Assembly: GCF_006345805.1 (NCBI RefSeq)
Contig: NC_043002.1
Coordinates: 34,410,001-34,474,000, forward strand
Direction: 5' to 3'
Length of the DNA: 64,000 nt
Origin: Octopus sinensis
Lineage: Eukaryota
Part shown: positions 3,942 to 62,665 of the stretch, one piece after another
Position numbering within the stretch: the stretch's first letter is position 1
How the letters are laid out: each line of letters begins with the position of its first letter
Program-made: the position numbers and the translations under genes
Notes under the pieces: generated by a model
What the model saw: only the letters and a program-made list of their open reading frames with translations
What the model was told of the DNA's origin: nothing
The model's database searches: none

Positions 3942-4234
3942 CTTCTCTGTGAAACTAATAAGCTTTTTTAAAACCTGTGATAAGACTGTGCATCATCATT
4001 AAAGAACTTTGGAAGTCTGTTTACAACCTCAATTTGCTTTTAATGAAATTATCTCCAATACTTCATGAGTGTAGCCTCACCCACTAAGATGTTTGGAGAA
4101 CTCATATGTATTTTAGCTGATGAGTACGGGACACTTTTATCTGCTGCAATATTTGCAACTTTTAATAAAGCCTGTCTTTGTATGAAACAATTGTACTAAA
4201 AACTAATCCATTCTTGTTGCTTCTTTTCTCGTTT
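3941..4234 (+). mobile_element. ~290-bp hammerhead-bearing insert in a (TA)n tract (Penelope-like pseudo-LTR fragment)
   Basis: Unique sequence flanked on both sides by TA microsatellite; contains a complete type I hammerhead motif. Confidence 0.6.
4111..4201 (+). ncRNA. Minimal type I hammerhead ribozyme
   Basis: Stem I ttttag/ctaaaa; core CTGATGA (4117-4123); stem II gtacggg../..tttgtat with a long loop; GAAA (4184-4187); palindromic stem III CAATTG; cleavage triplet GTA (4193-4195). Confidence 0.75.
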
Positions 4235-12237: not shown

Positions 12238-13700
12238 CGGGAAGCTTTATGAAAATAAACAAAAGACGAAGGCAGGTGGAAAACAAACGAACAATTGTAT
12301 TAGTATGGCGCTCAGGAAATATAAATAAAACAAGTCTTTAACGTTTCGAGCCTACGCTCTTCAACAGAAAGATACACAGAGAGAGAAAAACACAGAAAGA
12401 AGGAGAGAAAAAAAATGCGTGCAGTAGCTAACGAATCAACATGGCGATCTGATTTCGGCCAGAGGTCAAAGATCAAACATGAGACGCGAGAGCGAAATAA
12501 GGGGAGATAATAGGGTTGATAAAAGGGTTGAGGGACCAGCTAAAAGTGCGTGGGAGGGGTCTGGATGTGTGTATGTATAGGGTTGGTGTATGTATTAGTA
12601 TGTATAAGGGTGTGTGTGTGTGTGTGTGTGTGTGTATGAGAGAGTATTAGTGCGTAAGATTGGTCTGGACGTGCGTATGTATGGGGTTGGTGTATGTATT
12701 AGTATGTATTAGTATGTATTAGTACGTATTGGTATGTATAGGTGTGTGTGGTGTGTGAGAGAGAGTATAAGTGCGTATGCGGGGTCTGGACGTGTGTATG
12801 TATAGGGTTTGGTGTAAGTATTAGTATGTACTAGTATGTATTAGTACGTATTAGTATGTATTAGTTGGTGTGTGTATTAGTATGGCACATCATATGTGAT
12901 GTGATGTGTAAAGTCATGTGGTGTAGTGAGGAGAAGAGGGGGAGGGGGAGAAGAGAGGAGGGGAAGAAGAGGGGGAGAGAAGGGGAGGGGAAGAAGAGGG
13001 GGGAGGAGAAGGGGGAAGAGGAGAGGATGGGGGAGAAGGAAGGGGATGAGGGGGAGAAGGAGGAAAGAGGGAGAGGGGGAGAGAGAAGGGGAGAGAGGGA
13101 GTGAGGGAGCAGAGGGAAGGGGAAGAGGGAGGGAGGGAAAGAGGAAGAAGGGAAGGGGAGTAGGGGTGAAAGGATGAAGGACTGAAGAAGTAGGGGTCGG
13201 GGGGAGAAAGGATAGGTGAGGAGGGGGTGAGGTTAGATGAGGAGGGGGGAGAGTTGAGACCAAATGGCGTATAAGAGCGAAGAGAGAAGATTAATTCTGT
13301 TCACGCGCAAACGCAACGGGAATGGGATGGCCTCAAACGTGTAAGGACAAACCGTTGCAAGGATAGGTGTTTTGCAAGGAGTGACCGGTGGAGCGGAAAT
13401 GGCGTGAGACCGGTGTGGTCGTTCGCAAGGTGTGGAGATGTCACGAAGGTGTTCCGCGAACCGGTCAGCCAAGCGGCGTCCCGTTTGTCCGATGTACAAG
13501 GAATTGCAGAGAGAGCAAGAGTTGCAATAGATAATATTGCTGGAGGTGCAGGTGAAGGAGTGGATGATGGGATAGGGTCGATGGTGGGTGCTAGTGAGGC
13601 GGGTGGTGTTGGAGAGGTAAGGGCAAGTGCGGCAACGTGGGCGGGAGCAGGGGAACGAGCCGGGTTGGGAGGTAGGGTCAGGGAAAGAGCTATGGACCAC
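12238..13700 (-). mobile_element. 5'-truncated Penelope-like element (Neptune-type): GIY-YIG remnant, low-complexity 3' region and hammerhead-containing terminus
   Basis: Translates to CSRPRCRTC (Cys linker), FTCTSSNIIYCNSCSLCNSLYIGQTGRRLADRFAEHLRDI, then frameshifted PVSRHF..GHS..REQ..LIFSL..PFGLN. The hammerhead lies downstream on the same strand. Confidence 0.9.
12335..12372 (-). ncRNA. Minimal hammerhead-like motif with variant core CUGUUGA
   Basis: tcttt CTGTTGA a gagc-gtag-gctc GAAA CG TT aaaga: 5-bp stem I, 4-bp stem II, stem III reduced to the palindrome ACGT. Confidence 0.7.
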
Positions 13701-13738
13701 ATATACATAAACACATACATGCCTATATGCAAACATAC

Positions 13739-13779
<41 letters not shown>

Positions 13780-13802
13780 TATGTGTGTGTGTGTGTGTGT
13801 GT

Positions 13803-13848
<46 letters not shown>

Positions 13849-13961
13849 TGTGTTGAGGAGAGGTTAGAGAAAGTGCACGCACGCAGGTGGGTGTATAGTT
13901 ACGTATGTGAGTATGAGTGGGTCACTGTGTATCCATGTACGGGTATGTATGTATGTATGTA

Positions 13962-35193: not shown

Positions 35194-35236
35194 CATTATA
35201 TATACAAATGTATACAAATTATATATATATATATAT

Positions 35237-35354
35237 AACTAAAAATAAGGGTGTCTGAGAGACACCACCATGCCGAAATAGCAGTCCCTGACTCTAAGGG
35301 ATTTGACAGCTATTTCGGCATGGTGGTGTCTCTCAGACACCCTTATTTTTAGTT
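35237..35354. repeat. Perfect 46-bp inverted repeat (26-nt spacer) overlapping a degenerate hammerhead
   Basis: 35237-35282 is the exact reverse complement of 35309-35354. Minus strand reads aagggtgt CTGAGA gacaccaccatgcc GAAA tagctg TC aaatccctt. Confidence 0.9.
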
Positions 35355-35480
35355 GTAAAAAATTATTACCTTTGTATGGTATTTTTTCTCATGGTGCCCA
35401 CTTGATAATATCGATATTTAAATATCGATATTATCCTTATTTATATATATATAAATACAGATATATATACTTTGTATATA

Positions 35481-38400
35481 ATAATAATGTTCGTCCTTCG
35501 GTTCGAAGATGACCAACTGACATCATCTGATGGAACTGCCGCCATGAGACCGGAGGTGGCTGGTGAGGCCAATCCGGGCAAGGAAGCCCCTCCCACAGGT
35601 GGGGCAGAAGTGGGTAGGGGCAGTGCTACTGGTGCAGGCGGCTCTGACTTTACGCATCTGACGTTTCTGCTCCGCTGACCGAATCCGTCCCTCCTCGGCT
35701 GTCCCTGCTCCCACGGTGATTGCGCTGCGCCAGGATGAGCGGTTGGCAGCAAGTGTCTCCCAGGTCTCTGTTCCGATGGAGAAGTCTTTGAGAGAGACCT
35801 TGAGACTATCCTTGTAGCGCTTTTTCTGCCCTCCGACTTTGCGCCTGCCCTGGCCGAGTTCACCGTAGAAGAGCTGTTTTGGGATGCGAGTGTCGGACAT
35901 GCGGGTGACGTGGCCCGCCCATCTCAGCTGGGCCTTGCGCATGATTGTGATGGTGCTAGGGAGATCTGCCTGCTTCAGAACTTCCGTGTCTGGGACTTTG
36001 TCCTGCCAGCGGATGTGAAGGAGATTCCGAAGACACCTGAGATGGAAGTGGTTTATCTGGCGCTCGTGCCTTCGGTAAGCAGTCCACGTCTCGCAGCCGT
36101 ATAGTAGAGTGGTAAGCACGACTGCCCGGTAGACTTTCAGCTTGGTGTTGAGGCTGATTCCTCTCCGCTCCCAGACTTTCTTTCGCAGTCTCCCAAACGC
36201 GCTGCTTGCCTTGGAGATTCTGTTGATGGTTTCAGCATCTATGTTGGCATTGCAGGAGAGAGTGCTGCCCAGGTAGGTGAAGTTTTCCACCACTCGTAAG
36301 ATCCGTCCGTTCACCCTTATCTGAGGCTCATGGTATTGTTTGCCGGGGGCTGGCTGAAACATCACTTCGGTTTTCTTTGCACTGATGGTGAGACCGAAGT
36401 TGTCACAGGCTGATGAGAACCTGTCCATCTCGAGCTGCATCTCCTGCTCATCGATTGCATTAAGGGCGCAGTCGTCAGCAAAGAGAAAGTCTCTGACGAC
36501 TGTCTCCCTCACCTCGTCAGCAAAGAGAAAGTCTCTGACGACTGTCTCCCTCACCTTTGTGACAACCTGCAATCTCCTGGAGTTGAAAAGTTTCCCGTCT
36601 GTCCTGTACTTGATGTTGATACCGGACTTGCAGTCCCTAAAGGCGTCGGACATCATTGCCGAGAACATGATGCTGAACAGTGTTGGGGCCAGGACACAGC
36701 CCTGCCTGACTCCGTTTGTCACCTGGAAGGCTTCAGATGAGTCGCCGTCCTCAAGGATTCTGGCTGTCATTCCGTCGTGGAACTGGCGGACAATTGCAAT
36801 AAATTTGCTGGGGCAACCAAATTTTCCCATGACCTTCCATAGTCCCTCCCGACTGACTGTATCAAAGGCCTTGGTGAGGTCAACAAAGGTCATGCAGAGG
36901 TCAAGGTGCTGCTCCATGCATTTCTCCTGGAGCTGGCGGGCGGCGAATATCATGTCAGTGGTCCCTCGACCCGCACGGAAGCCACACTGGCTCTCAGGGA
37001 GAAGGCCTTGCTCCAAGTGTTCCAGAAGGCGGTCAAGCAGGACCCGGGCCAGGATCTTGCCTGCTATGGACAAGAGGGAAATACCTCGGTGGTTGTCGCA
37101 GGACTGCCGATCTCCTTTCCGCTTATAAATGTGGACGATTGTTGCATCCCGGAAATCTTGAGGGAGTTGTTCCCTGTCCCACATCGACTGGAACAGGCTG
37201 GTGAGCTGACTGATCATGGTGGGGCCGCCCGACTTGAACACCTCTGCAGGGATGGCGTCAGAGCCTGGAGCTTTGCCGGTGGACATTTTTTTGATGGCTC
37301 TGCTCACTTCCCCGACTGCAGGGGGAACAGCCAACTCGTGGTTTGTCGGCACCTGGGTGAGTCGTGCGATGGCTTCCTCGTTGATCTGGGCTGGTCGGTT
37401 GAGCACGATGTTGAAGTGCTCCGCCCATCTCTCCAGGATCAGCCTCTTGTTAGTCAGGAGTGAGGTTCCATCTGAGCTGAGCAGGGGGGTTGATCCAAAG
37501 GAGAACTGCGGTCCATAGACAGCTTTCAGCGCCTCGTAGAATTTCTTGGTGTCGTGTTTGTCTGCGTATCCCTGAATCTCATCCGCCTTGGCGCTTAACC
37601 ATGCGTCTTGCATGAGGCGGAGTTTAGCCTGGACTGTGCTGCGAATGTTGTTGAAAGCGGCCTTCTTTGCCGTGCAGGTGGTGTCATTTTGGTGAGCCCG
37701 CAGCAGACGGCGTTTCTCTTCCAGGAGCTTTTGGATTTCCTGGTCGTTTTCGTCGAACCAGTCCTGGTGGTTCCTCGTAATTTGGCCCAGAGTTTCAAGG
37801 GCGATGGAATGAACCGTGTCCCTGAATGATTCCCACTGCTCATCGATGCTGGACTGGTCACTCCGAATGTCCAACAGCTTACTGTCCATACGTGACTGGA
37901 GATCTTGTGCAGTCAGCTGGTTCCTTAATTTCGTGATGTTAAGCTTCCTCGTCACTTTCTGACCCTGTGGTCTTCTCTTAGGTCGGATGTAGAAATCCAT
38001 CCTGGAGATGATGAGGCGATGGTCCGTCCAGCAGTCAGCTCCGCACATGGCTTTGACCAGTCTCACGTCCCGCCTGTCTTTCGCCCTGACGATGACGTAA
38101 TCTATCAGATGCCAGTGTTTGGAGCGTGGATGCATCCATGATGTCTTGTTGCGTGTTGGCAGACGGAACAAGGTGTTGGCGATGGTAAGATCATGAGAGG
38201 CACACGCACGCAGGAGGAGCTGTCCGTTGCTGTTGCACTTTCCGATTCCTTGCTTTCCCAGTACGCGATGCCAGGCTTGGTGGTCAGTCCCGACACGGGC
38301 GTTAAAATCCCCAAGGAGGATGAGCTTCTCAGGCTGGGCTGACGTGATGAGGGAGTCGAGTTCCTCATAGAACCTGTCCTTAACCTCTTCAGGGTTGGTC

Positions 38401-39497
38401 ATGGTGGGGGCGTAAGCACTGATGATGGTCGCACTAGTCTTGTTTCCAAGTGGGAGCTGCATCTTCATCAGCCGATCGTTGATACCCTCGGGGGGGCTTT
38501 CCAGTTTCCGCACGTGTACTGACTTAATGGCAAAACCAACACCAGCCTCACGACGCTCTTCGCTGCTGCGACCACTCCAAAAGAAAGTGTAGCCGCCGCC
38601 TGTCTCTGTCAGCTGGCCTTTGTCCGCAAGGCGGGTCTCGCTCAGTGCTGCAATATCGACACTGTATCGGCTCAGTTCTCTGGCCACCAGGGCAGTTCGT
38701 CTCTCTGGTCTGTCCGCTTTGGTGTTGTCAAGCAGAGTTCTCACGTTCCAAGTTGCGAAAGTGAGCACCTTTGTTTGTTTTCTTCTTTCTTTGTTTCGAC
38801 CGCTTGGAAAGGATCCCCGCCAGCCGCGGTTTGCTGACCAGGGTGAGGTGAGGCAGGCTATGTTTAGGGCAACCTTTTCTAGCCCCGTCCTCATGCTGGG
38901 GAGGCGAGCAGAGCGATCCTGAAGAGGGCTGCTCGGTCACTCAGGAGGCTGCCGGACTCCACTGCTGCCTCAGTTCAGTGAGGGGCGACCACATGTCCTG
39001 AGCCGCCTGTGTGTGGGTTCACGACTGCAGCTCCCAGTGTATCCTCACCTGCTACTTCGCCGTTTCCCCATCGCCACAGGACTTTGGGATGGTGTCATGG
39101 CGTCATGATGTCGTGACATGCGCGTGACTTGGATTATAGTGAGGGTGACTTGCGCAGGATCAGCCTCACTCTCTCGTCCTGGTGCGCCGGATCCAGTGGC
39201 AAGACAAAGTCAAGACGACTGGGGGTAGACCAAGATGCAGGAGCTGCCGGAAGGTGGCACGCATGGCGCAATCCAACCGCCTTAGGGGCTCCACTCCGGA
39301 TTTTGGATGGCCATTGACTCATGAGAGAGTTCCTCTGCCCTTTGACAAGTTTTGTTTTTAGTCCTGCTGGGTGTCCAAATCACCCTCCTCACCAAGAAAT
39401 CTTGGTGGGGTTGCCAGTTTAGTCGCCAACGACCCGACCATGTAACAGGTTGTACTGGGTTACATGTTACCAGTAGCTCCAAGCGGAGACCTGACAC
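35481..39497 (-). mobile_element. Full-length RTE-clade LINE, 4017 bp, with 13-bp TSD
   Basis: TSD tactttgtatata at 35468-35480 and 39498-39510; ~600-nt 5' UTR; single long ORF; short 3' UTR with hairpin cttcg-aac-cgaag and (ATT)n tail. Confidence 0.97.
35523..38894 (-). CDS. RTE ORF2p: APE endonuclease, reverse transcriptase and C-terminal C2H2 zinc finger (1123 aa)
   Basis: EN motifs TWNVRTL, ALSETRL, SAYAPT, LGDFNARVG, LIDY, TDHRL. RT motifs KAPGSD, RGISLLS, QCGFR, FVDLTKAFD, GVRQGCVLAP, FADD, YLGS. Zinc finger CPTCGRGFLARIGLTSHLRSH. No stops. Confidence 0.97.
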   Translation of the reverse strand: MRTGLEKVALNIACLTSPWSANRGWRGSFPSGRNKERRKQTKVLTFATWNVRTLLDNTKADRPERRTALVARELSRYSVDIAALSETRLADKGQLTETGGGYTFFWSGRSSEERREAGVGFAIKSVHVRKLESPPEGINDRLMKMQLPLGNKTSATIISAYAPTMTNPEEVKDRFYEELDSLITSAQPEKLILLGDFNARVGTDHQAWHRVLGKQGIGKCNSNGQLLLRACASHDLTIANTLFRLPTRNKTSWMHPRSKHWHLIDYVIVRAKDRRDVRLVKAMCGADCWTDHRLIISRMDFYIRPKRRPQGQKVTRKLNITKLRNQLTAQDLQSRMDSKLLDIRSDQSSIDEQWESFRDTVHSIALETLGQITRNHQDWFDENDQEIQKLLEEKRRLLRAHQNDTTCTAKKAAFNNIRSTVQAKLRLMQDAWLSAKADEIQGYADKHDTKKFYEALKAVYGPQFSFGSTPLLSSDGTSLLTNKRLILERWAEHFNIVLNRPAQINEEAIARLTQVPTNHELAVPPAVGEVSRAIKKMSTGKAPGSDAIPAEVFKSGGPTMISQLTSLFQSMWDREQLPQDFRDATIVHIYKRKGDRQSCDNHRGISLLSIAGKILARVLLDRLLEHLEQGLLPESQCGFRAGRGTTDMIFAARQLQEKCMEQHLDLCMTFVDLTKAFDTVSREGLWKVMGKFGCPSKFIAIVRQFHDGMTARILEDGDSSEAFQVTNGVRQGCVLAPTLFSIMFSAMMSDAFRDCKSGINIKYRTDGKLFNSRRLQVVTKVRETVVRDFLFADEVRETVVRDFLFADDCALNAIDEQEMQLEMDRFSSACDNFGLTISAKKTEVMFQPAPGKQYHEPQIRVNGRILRVVENFTYLGSTLSCNANIDAETINRISKASSAFGRLRKKVWERRGISLNTKLKVYRAVVLTTLLYGCETWTAYRRHERQINHFHLRCLRNLLHIRWQDKVPDTEVLKQADLPSTITIMRKAQLRWAGHVTRMSDTRIPKQLFYGELGQGRRKVGGQKKRYKDSLKVSLKDFSIGTETWETLAANRSSWRSAITVGAGTAEEGRIRSAEQKRQMRKVRAACTSSTAPTHFCPTCGRGFLARIGLTSHLRSHGGSSIR

Positions 39498-44890: not shown

Positions 44891-45071
44891 ATATAAAATA
44901 TTATTAGAGACAAAACCACTATTTTGCAAAACAAACAAGGAAAGACTTAATCAATACATAAAATTTTAATAAATAGTCAAATTGACAATTTATTAAAATT
45001 TTATGTATTGATTAAGTCTTTCCTTGTTTGTTTTGCAAAATAGTGGTTTTGTCTCTAATAATATTTTATAT
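44891..45071. repeat. Near-perfect 181-bp palindrome
   Basis: 90-bp arms around a single A at 44981, with one mismatch near the centre; embedded between TA tracts. Confidence 0.92.
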
Positions 45072-61849: not shown

Positions 61850-61865
61850 TGTATATATATAAATA

Positions 61866-61905
<40 letters not shown>

Positions 61906-62332
61906 CTAGGATGGAATTTATAAATATTTAATACATCGCAACGCGCGTTTCCACAAATCACATGCTTTTGACATCAGAGTCGGTATCCTTGGGATTAGTA
62001 CTTTATATTCCATATTATCACAGAGGGGTGCTTATCCTTTCTTGCCAGTATGAAGGCCAATTTAGCTATGTGGGTATTTCTGTATGTGCTTGGTATGTAC
62101 ATTGCTAGATTGGCCTTCATACAGGCAAAAAAGGATAAGCACTCCTCTATGATTCATCCAATAATACTGTATCGCCTGATGAAATGAATCAATGGTGATG
62201 ATCAACCGGATTCCCGCGGATAATGCGGAATATAATGTACTAATCCCAAGGATACCGACTCTGATGTCAAAAGCATGGGATTTGTGGAAACGCGCGTTGC
62301 GATGTATTAAATATTTGTAAATTCCGTCCTAG
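61906..62332. mobile_element. Inverted-repeat Penelope-like pseudo-LTR structure
   Basis: Left arm 61906-~62070 is the reverse complement of ~62100-62332, except for a ~65-bp block (~62155-62220) present only in the right arm; abuts (TA)n. Confidence 0.8.
62168..62306 (+). ncRNA. Type I hammerhead ribozyme with a large stem II insertion
   Basis: Stem I tgtatcgc/gcgatgta; CTGATGA at 62176-62182; stem II atgaatc/gatttgt (A.G closing mismatch); GAAA at 62287-62290; palindromic CGCGCG; triplet GTT. Confidence 0.7.
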
Positions 62333-62665
62333 CATTCTTGTTTTTACTATATTTATCCTACATTATATCGGTATGACCAGGATGGAACCTTGAAAAACTG
62401 ACTTACTAGTCAGTATCATTAGACGGTAGCCGGCATAATGAAACGCGGACTAGAAGAAACAGGGATAACTGATGAAGAGGGATATTCTTTATATTGCATG
62501 TCTCGTTTCTGTTTGTTTCTTCGTTGTTCGAAAAAAAGTTCGTTTTCTATGTTTTTGTTTTTATATTTTCGTTTCTCAATGTGTTCAACGTATTTTTGTC
62601 TTGAACCCATATATGCATGTATATATACATATATATGTAGGTATATACATATATGTATGTATATA

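What the first reader, a model, noticed from the sequence alone, without database searches (positions are those of the whole stretch)
61906..62332. Inverted pseudo-LTR in which only one arm keeps the complete hammerhead
Seen: the right arm has an 8-bp stem I, CUGAUGA, a ~90-nt stem II insertion, GAAA, palindromic CGCGCG and GUU. The left, inverted arm lacks the block holding CUGAUGA but retains the GAAACGCGCGTT half. Inference: in a read-through RNA, the left arm would pair with and silence the ribozyme while looping out the CUGAUGA strand. Together with 4111, 12335, 21830, 35309 and 57659, this suggests a diverse, probably under-annotated set of hammerhead-bearing, microsatellite-targeted mini-retroelements.
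Basis: partly seen in the sequence, partly recalled or inferred. Interest (0 to 1): 0.7.

Follow-up and report, generated by a model that had tools for sequence, protein, structure and literature searches.

The report
Penelope stub with long-armed hammerhead
This is a worn, mirror-image stub of a known kind of animal jumping gene: one arm lost 68 bases in what is likely a one-off deletion rather than an on/off switch, and the only unusual trait is family-wide, a self-cutting-RNA motif whose middle arm is about four times longer than in listed relatives and whose cutting is untested.

Summary
The inverted repeat and the hammerhead motif are real. Arms 61902-62095 (-) and 62099-62336 (+) are 94% alike; the left lacks a 68-bp block (62151-62218) holding CUGAUGA. 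The locus is a 5'-truncated, head-to-head-plus-tail insertion of an old, protein-coding Hydra-clade Penelope-like element (at least 150 full motif copies in the genome), not a mini-element. The regulatory reading fails: the deletion junction occurs only here (1 match versus 40 for the intact junction), sits on a 3-nt microhomology, and 154 of 156 arms spanning the block keep it; one-armed loss also arises routinely by truncation, and fold-back masks the ribozyme just as well when both arms are whole. What is unusual is family-wide: 104 nt (not 90) between the core halves, against 26 nt or less in the 26 published Hydra rows. Majority sequences fold it as one rod, but covariation is not significant and this copy's rod is damaged. 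The scan noted long-helix-II Hydra hammerheads before on other DNA. New variant of a known kind; modest interest.

The parts
61852..61901 (.). (TA)n tract against which the left arm's 3' end abuts (likely target)
   Evidence: sequence
61902..62095 (-). Left, inverted arm: last ~30 nt of element body + pseudo-LTR without the 68-nt block and without tail
62017..62020 (-). Deletion junction (between 62020 and 62019) on a 3-nt GAT microhomology; unique in the genome search
62095..62102 (.). Head-to-head junction of the arms with an 8-bp palindrome
   Evidence: sequence
62099..62336 (+). Right arm: whole pseudo-LTR, starting at the family's preferred 5' end; 26 differences in 255 columns from its subfamily majority
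62151..62218 (+). 68-nt block absent from the left arm (5' strand of helix I, CUGAUGA, 5' side of helix II)
62162..62309 (+). Type I hammerhead motif: helix I 62162-62167/62304-62309 and 62171-62175/62299-62303 with a 3-nt bulge; core 62176-62182 and 62287-62290; palindromic helix III 62290-62297; predicted cut after 62298
62183..62286 (+). 104-nt helix II domain; one irregular rod in family majorities, damaged in this copy
62337..62443 (+). Tail of the right arm, cut short about 45-55 nt before the usual tail end and joined at GAAAC to another repeat family

Best explanation
The stretch is a head-to-head pair of pseudo-LTR copies with a tail, belonging to a Hydra-clade Penelope-like retrotransposon family, likely laid down in a (TA)n tract as one short 5'-truncated insertion, whose left arm likely lost 68 bp in a one-off microhomology-mediated deletion with no regulatory role. 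Shown: the arms, the gap, the family, its coding body, the private junction. Inferred: the element's GIY-YIG nuclease nicked the AT-rich target and its reverse transcriptase copied the element's RNA twice, once from the pseudo-LTR end and once from the tail, each copy stopping near a preferred 5' end about 72 nt upstream of the core; the arms then decayed, and a second short-homology join clipped the tail. The hammerhead is the family's ordinary 3' type I motif with a palindromic helix III that would cleave only as a dimer (as for other Penelope hammerheads), but with helix II stretched to about 104 nt; in the active ancestor this most likely folded as one rod that keeps the two core halves together. 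This copy is most likely dead: its rod is damaged and any read-through RNA would fold back on itself.
For: Family: 54 matches at 71-100% from 40 of 923 candidates scored; 150 of 150 scored model hits full length; 211 and 176 exact matches to the two core-half patterns, controls 0. Coding body upstream with CxCX5C linker, no Cys pair inside the GIY-YIG, CxxC/CxH around E and N, and RT motifs like Hydra (against PMC8557442 section 11 and Fig. S7). Layout: 39 of 134 distinct loci are inverted pairs with varied junctions; layout, tail, junction palindromes and microhomology deletions are described for Penelope. Deletion private: 1 match versus 40; 2 of 156 arms lack CUGANGA, this one and L039 with a different lesion. 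Ribozyme constraint: across five subfamily clusters the core varies only at the free position 7, helix III not at all, helix I only by pair-keeping changes (2 of 22 columns), bulge and flanks freely (flanks 23 of 74); spacer 95-115 nt in 110 of 118 arms; the hammerhead topology is the lowest-energy fold of 3 of 5 majorities; the 8-nt helix III palindrome does not fold alone but pairs with itself at -13.3 kcal/mol.
Against: The rod is not proven: on 18 copies the covariation score was reached by 43 of 500 shuffles and two-sided changes by 52 of 500; RNAalifold of that alignment returned a different, partial fold; all 9 helix II pairs that vary between subfamilies are broken in at least one subfamily; folding z-scores are only -1.1 to -2.3 and -0.88 for this copy. 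Many loci were fetched with core patterns, which inflates core conservation; the protein-fetched check covered only 20 arms of three clusters. Pfam recognised none of 4 protein fragments, so clade placement is by motif, with no tree. Both arms share 7 variants rare in the family and found in no sister copy, so later arm-to-arm conversion or a rare source element is needed and the timing of the deletion is unknown.
Confidence: 0.85

Rival explanations
1. One reading: the left arm was shaped to silence the ribozyme in cis while leaving the CUGAUGA strand free.
For: In the + strand fold the GAAA half is fully paired (unpaired 0.00) and CUGAUGA is half open (0.48).
Against: The deletion is found once; whole-arm loci mask both halves (unpaired 0.00-0.20); the freed strand has no free 3' half to pair with; the family is old, about 10-15% from its own majorities; the right arm's helix II base is damaged.
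Confidence: 0.03
2. The stub is a copy of a separate non-coding mini-element (retrozyme-like) mobilised by the Hydra protein.
For: Many copies are pseudo-LTR-only, and 5' ends pile up at one point: 22 of the listed starts fall at model positions +1 to +6.
Against: The same pseudo-LTR follows coding sequence in protein-fetched copies (25 of 29 alignments extend more than 100 nt upstream); inversion points are scattered; I saw no head-to-tail arrays of the unit in the hit table. Internal initiation on a pseudo-LTR-started RNA (PMC11167929) gives such stubs without a second element.
Confidence: 0.08
3. The 104-nt stretch is an insertion that crippled the ribozyme; the motif was kept for a non-catalytic reason (promoter, protein-binding site) and never cut in this family.
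For: No compensatory change in helix II; A.G instead of G-C at the base of helix II; helix II sequence is itself fairly conserved (17 of 105 columns vary versus 21 of 74 in flanks); a competing hairpin covers the 3' strand. Ribozyme mutants did not block insertion in vitro for the anole element.
Against: Core varies only at position 7 and helix I keeps pairing across subfamilies; non-G-C pairs at that position are common in published Hydra hammerheads. This rival concerns only the ribozyme step, not the origin of the locus.
Confidence: 0.3
4. The 68-bp gap is an assembly error in a hairpin-forming region.
For: No contig of 4 of 4 runs covers 62005-62024.
Against: The tool warns that a hole proves nothing; left-arm-specific bases on the other side of the junction are equally uncovered; the arms carry their own scattered substitutions; the inter-arm junction is covered without differences by contigs 62032-62211 (X1) and 62032-62203 (X5).
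Confidence: 0.05

Closest known systems
Hydra clade of C-terminal-endonuclease Penelope-like elements (Craig et al. 2021, PMC8557442; seen: passages, sections 6 and 11, supplement parts 1-2 and passages)
   Same: CxCX5C linker, no CCHH, CxxC and CxH around E and N, RT motifs, (TA)n targets, type I hammerhead near the 3' end with palindromic helix III; Penelope-13_HM is listed with a 5'-truncated inverted copy and a hammerhead on both strands.
   Different: The 26 Hydra rows of File S2 have loop 2 of 3-10 nt (about 26 nt or less between the core halves); here 104 nt. The motif differs from that of Hydra-1_Obim, and two core strings of this family were not found in the supplement's Hydra sequences. 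Helix I has a 3-nt bulge. Tail about 150-160 nt rather than 30-40.
Inverted pseudo-LTR + tail insertions of EN+ Penelope elements (Arkhipova et al. 2013, PMC3846280, passages; Frangieh et al. 2024, PMC11167929, parts 1-2 of 4)
   Same: Head-to-head arms, tail on one arm, palindrome at the junction, copies disabled by microhomology-mediated deletions.
   Different: No target-site duplication can be read here (microsatellite on the left, clipped tail on the right).
Minimal, dimer-acting hammerheads of metazoan Penelope pseudo-LTRs (Cervera and de la Pena 2014, PMC4209133, parts 1-2 of 4)
   Same: Type I, palindromic helix III region, opposite-strand pairs 100-700 bp apart already noted.
   Different: Their helix II is 7-8 bp with a conserved G10.1-C11.1 pair; here about 33 predicted pairs in a rod and an A.G at the base.
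Discontinuous hammerhead of mammalian Clec2 mRNA (via review PMC6155905, passages)
   Same: A long insertion separates the two core halves.
   Different: Type III, insertion in helix I, host-domesticated; here type I, helix II, in a transposon.
Metazoan non-LTR retrozymes (PMC7229834, passages; bioRxiv 10.64898/2026.07.22.740005, part 1 of 5)
   Same: Short hammerhead-bearing units related to Penelope pseudo-LTRs.
   Different: Those are head-to-tail tandem units; this is an inverted stub of a coding element.

Membership tests
EN+ Penelope-like element | RT followed by C-terminal GIY-YIG endonuclease upstream of the pseudo-LTR | tested here: met
   In other copies of the family, by motif; absent from the window copy by truncation; Pfam gave no hit
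EN+ Penelope-like element | Inverted 5'-truncated pseudo-LTR and optional tail | tested here: met
   Window; 39 of 134 loci inverted, 78 of 147 arms run into the tail
Hydra clade | CxCX5C linker | tested here: met
   L076, L200, L203
Hydra clade | No CCHH (no Cys pair between GIY and YIG); CxxC and CxH around conserved E and N | tested here: met
Hydra clade | RWK and DKT motifs in the N-terminal part | not tested
   The six copies translated were not seen to reach that part
Hydra clade | Placement in the RT tree | not tested
   Compared by eye with Fig. S7 rows only
Hydra clade | Insertion into (TA)n | tested here: met
   42 of 69 tail-less 3' ends meet (TA)n/(TAA)n/(TTG)n within 45 nt versus 8.7% of control windows; the element's own ATT-rich end may inflate this
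Type I hammerhead ribozyme | Core CUGANGA, GAAA, UH in order, with helix I | tested here: met
   only N7 varies between subfamilies
Type I hammerhead ribozyme | Helix II closing the core | tested here: inconclusive
   Predicted in majorities and 40 of 73 intact-core copies, not in the window copy; covariation not significant
Type I hammerhead ribozyme | Self-cleavage at the predicted site | not testable with these tools
   Only contigs were available; no bench test
Canonical Hydra/Penelope hammerhead | Short helix II (loop 3-10 nt) | tested here: not met
   Median 104 nt, range 88-129 in 118 arms versus File S2
Non-LTR retrozyme | Non-coding unit in head-to-tail tandem repeats with a hammerhead in each unit | tested here: not met
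   Coding body present; hit table shows single and inverted arms

The most novel reading that the evidence does not exclude
This Hydra lineage used a working hammerhead whose helix II grew into a roughly 104-nt rod, a separate RNA domain placed just behind the RNA's 5' start that docks the element's own protein or contacts the helix I bulge and so gates dimer cleavage; such long-armed hammerheads would be a hidden, search-evading class in animal genomes.
Probability: 0.3. Interest if true: 0.55.

Novelty: new variant of a known kind. Interest (0 to 1): 0.3.

Why it matters
The headline idea (one arm silencing the other by design) would have been a new way to regulate a ribozyme, but it is an accident of one dead copy. 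What remains useful: published descriptors for these elements used a 7-17 nt spacer between the core halves and flagged 35-50 nt as 'half core' (PMC8557442), so a family with 104 nt is invisible to them, and Penelope families scored as lacking a hammerhead may need rechecking. If the rod is functional, it offers a handle on the open question of what Penelope hammerheads do, since the anole ribozyme cut only with the element's protein present (PMC11167929).

Tried and rejected
Rfam scan: microsatellite-driven miRNA hits only in the 150 rows shown. A second CUGAUG-like word 82 nt downstream as the true core: rejected, it has no helix I and is not kept in other subfamilies. The missing block as a spliced intron: rejected, no GT..AG at any of the shifted ends on either strand (read). 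Pfam on 4 fragments: no relevant hit. More distant Hydra-like families for covariation: 40 lower-scoring protein hits fetched; 9 were the same family, the rest too decayed to show a hammerhead. Covariance-model search returned only close relatives because just 150 candidates were scored. Reads: no RNA holder listed; no contig covers the deletion junction in 4 of 4 runs, which decides nothing. Host gene: no exon identified among 77 frames of 110 aa or more; not searched further. A U4C change in one cluster after CpG correction was an artefact: 10 TG versus 4 CG of 16. Papers not held: PMC5785218 (Lunse et al.) and PMC5850863 (Arkhipova et al. 2017); PMC10085705 not read. These, Repbase/Dfam entries and bioRxiv supplements that I could not see may already show long helix II variants.

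Full report
Observation. The window is G000:C6:34410001-34474000 in a 2.72-Gb animal genome; from its microsatellite and SINE style I took it for a cephalopod, from recall, and no call establishes that. The reverse complement of 61902-62071 aligns to 62099-62336 with one 68-nt gap (62151-62218) and 94% identity over the longer piece. The left arm continues to 62095, matching the element body upstream of the pseudo-LTR, and the right arm continues into a tail to 62443. The right arm holds CUGAUGA at 62176, 104 nt, GAAA, CGCGCG and GUU with the cut predicted after 62298. A strict descriptor finds 2 such sites in the window and none in 200 of 200 local shuffles.

What it belongs to. The right arm has 54 genome matches from 40 of 923 candidates scored; the two core-half patterns have 211 and 176 exact matches with controls at 0; a covariance model hit 150 of 150 scored candidates over full length. 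Longer copies carry decayed coding sequence upstream: a GIY-YIG region with a CxCX5C linker, no cysteine pair between GIY and YIG, and CxxC and CxH motifs, preceded by RT motifs. These are the features given for the Hydra clade (PMC8557442 section 11) and match its Fig. S7 rows by eye. Pfam recognised none of 4 fragments and I built no tree. The family splits into five clusters whose copies lie 10-15% from their own majority (101 arms), so it is old; 65 of 118 near-full arms still have an intact core and 13 also keep helix I and a perfect palindrome.

Is the asymmetry special? No. The junction pattern matches only this locus while the intact junction pattern matches 40 places. Of 156 arms with sequence on both sides of the block, 2 lack CUGANGA: this one and L039, whose lesion differs (158 distinct loci of 235 fetched). 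The gap has GAT at both ends, and microhomology deletions are a described way in which Penelope copies die (PMC3846280 passages). Inverted pairs are common: 39 of 134 distinct loci, of which 20 have both core halves in both arms, 13 in one arm (this locus included) and 6 in neither; in the 30 loci fetched by the 3' core half, 11 are inverted, split 1, 5 and 5. Most other one-armed cases come from 5' truncation at the inversion point. Folding the + strand read-through RNA confirms that the GAAA half is masked and CUGAUGA partly open, but three loci with two whole arms mask both halves, so the deletion lessens masking rather than creating it. The inverted layout with a one-sided tail is the standard Penelope pattern, and opposite-strand hammerhead pairs were noted in 2014. 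The arms share 7 variants that are rare in the subfamily (1-5 of about 50 arms each) and a pattern over two of them occurs nowhere else, pointing to a rare source copy or later conversion between arms; I cannot date the deletion. Contigs from four runs cover the junction between the arms without differences in X1 and X5 but none covers the deletion point, so the gap is not verified in reads.

The hammerhead. Across the five clusters the core differs only at position 7 (U versus A), helix III and the cleavage triplet do not vary, helix I varies at 2 of 22 paired columns and keeps pairing, while its 3-nt bulge and 23 of 74 flanking columns vary. Because many loci were fetched by core patterns I repeated this on 20 protein-fetched arms of three clusters: core 0 of 11 variable, flanks 21 of 74, helix II 17 of 105. 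The spacer is 95-115 nt in 110 of 118 arms. All five majorities fold it as one unbranched, irregular rod, and the hammerhead topology is the lowest-energy fold in 3 of 5. Against this: z-scores are only -1.1 to -2.3; paired columns vary less than unpaired ones (10 of 66 versus 14 of 39, p = 0.018, but the structure was derived from the same sequences) and all 9 varying pairs are broken in some cluster; on 18 hand-picked copies covariation did not exceed shuffles (43 and 52 of 500) and RNAalifold gave another fold. In the window copy the base of helix II has pairing probability 0.0, against over 0.5 in 40 of 73 intact-core copies, and the fold z-score is -0.88. The 8-nt palindrome of helix III cannot fold alone but pairs with a second copy, as in dimer-acting Penelope hammerheads (PMC4209133; review PMC6765202 passages).

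Mechanism. Shown: anatomy, family, coding body, private gap. Inferred from the anole element (PMC11167929): nicking at AT-rich DNA and reverse transcription started inside the RNA, at the pseudo-LTR end or at the tail end, give arms with and without tail. Here 78 of 147 arms reaching the 3' end run into the tail, and 42 of the other 69 meet a microsatellite versus 8.7% of controls. 5' ends pile up about 72 nt upstream of the core (partly shaped by the query), where the right arm also starts; this may be the RNA's start, an idea that earlier scan notes prompted me to test. The copy is most likely inert.

Comparison and novelty. The 26 Hydra rows of File S2 have loop 2 of 3-10 nt, and the longest helix II in that file is about 55 nt in a spike-moss element; several have U.U rather than G-C at the base of helix II, so the A.G here is not disqualifying. 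'Long' helix II in viral type I hammerheads means 6-8 bp (PMC13725137 passages). Four searches found no paper describing a 100-nt helix II in a Penelope hammerhead, but two key papers were not held. A recent octopus repeat annotation does not use the word ribozyme in its main text (PMC13282606). The scan's own unchecked notes report long-helix-II Hydra hammerheads in this and other genomes and many fold-back stubs; none matched this family by sequence. My reading was set before those look-ups.

4111: canonical core with a 60-nt helix II; 12335: short helix II with a variant core, about 870 nt downstream of a GIY-YIG remnant of Neptune/Naiad type; 21830: same family as 12335 by eye; 35309: a fold-back at 35234-35357 with no descriptor hit; 57659: no descriptor hit. 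They are unrelated in sequence to this family, and at least one is a coding element's end, so they do not form one class of mini-elements.

Verdict. Observation confirmed; Penelope pseudo-LTR reading supported; regulatory and mini-element readings not supported. New variant of a known kind on account of the 104-nt helix II; interest 0.3.

Noticed in passing
window 62439-62607 (+): The tail is joined at a shared GAAAC to another high-copy family whose copies (L125, L030, L146, L175) show GAAA, then a UA, then CUGANGA: a permuted hammerhead order. The window copy lost the strand before GAAA at the join. It may be the Naiad motif of note e1-8807213; not tested.
   Followed up: partly
family tail, e.g. 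L006, L014, L015, L020, L042, L071: The tail runs about 150-160 nt past the short 3' end and stops at a fixed point before (TA)n, much longer than the 30-40 bp described for other Penelope elements.
   Followed up: partly
window 4111-4201 (+): Second canonical-core hammerhead with a 60-nt helix II and an 8-nt palindromic helix III, unrelated in sequence.
   Followed up: partly
window 13233-13898 (-) and 12367 (-), 21830 (-): GIY-YIG remnant with both zinc-finger motifs (Neptune/Naiad type) upstream of a short hammerhead whose core reads either as an A6U or a U3 variant; the family is frequent in fetched loci.
   Followed up: no
   Followed up: no
inverted loci L006, L008, L018, L049, L058 and others: The two arms of one insertion usually differ as much as random subfamily pairs (median about 0.16 versus 0.17 in 15 loci), whereas the window's arms are much closer and share rare variants.
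   Followed up: partly
window 35523-38936 (-): 1137-aa open frame of an endonuclease-RT LINE (RTE-like by recall), with a 42-bp tandem duplication inside the RT.
   Followed up: no
window 44891-45071: 181-bp fold-back at 98% identity, not examined.
   Followed up: no
L126:1484-1646 (-): A markedly diverged family member that keeps both core halves and the spacer length; a useful seed for covariation.
   Followed up: no
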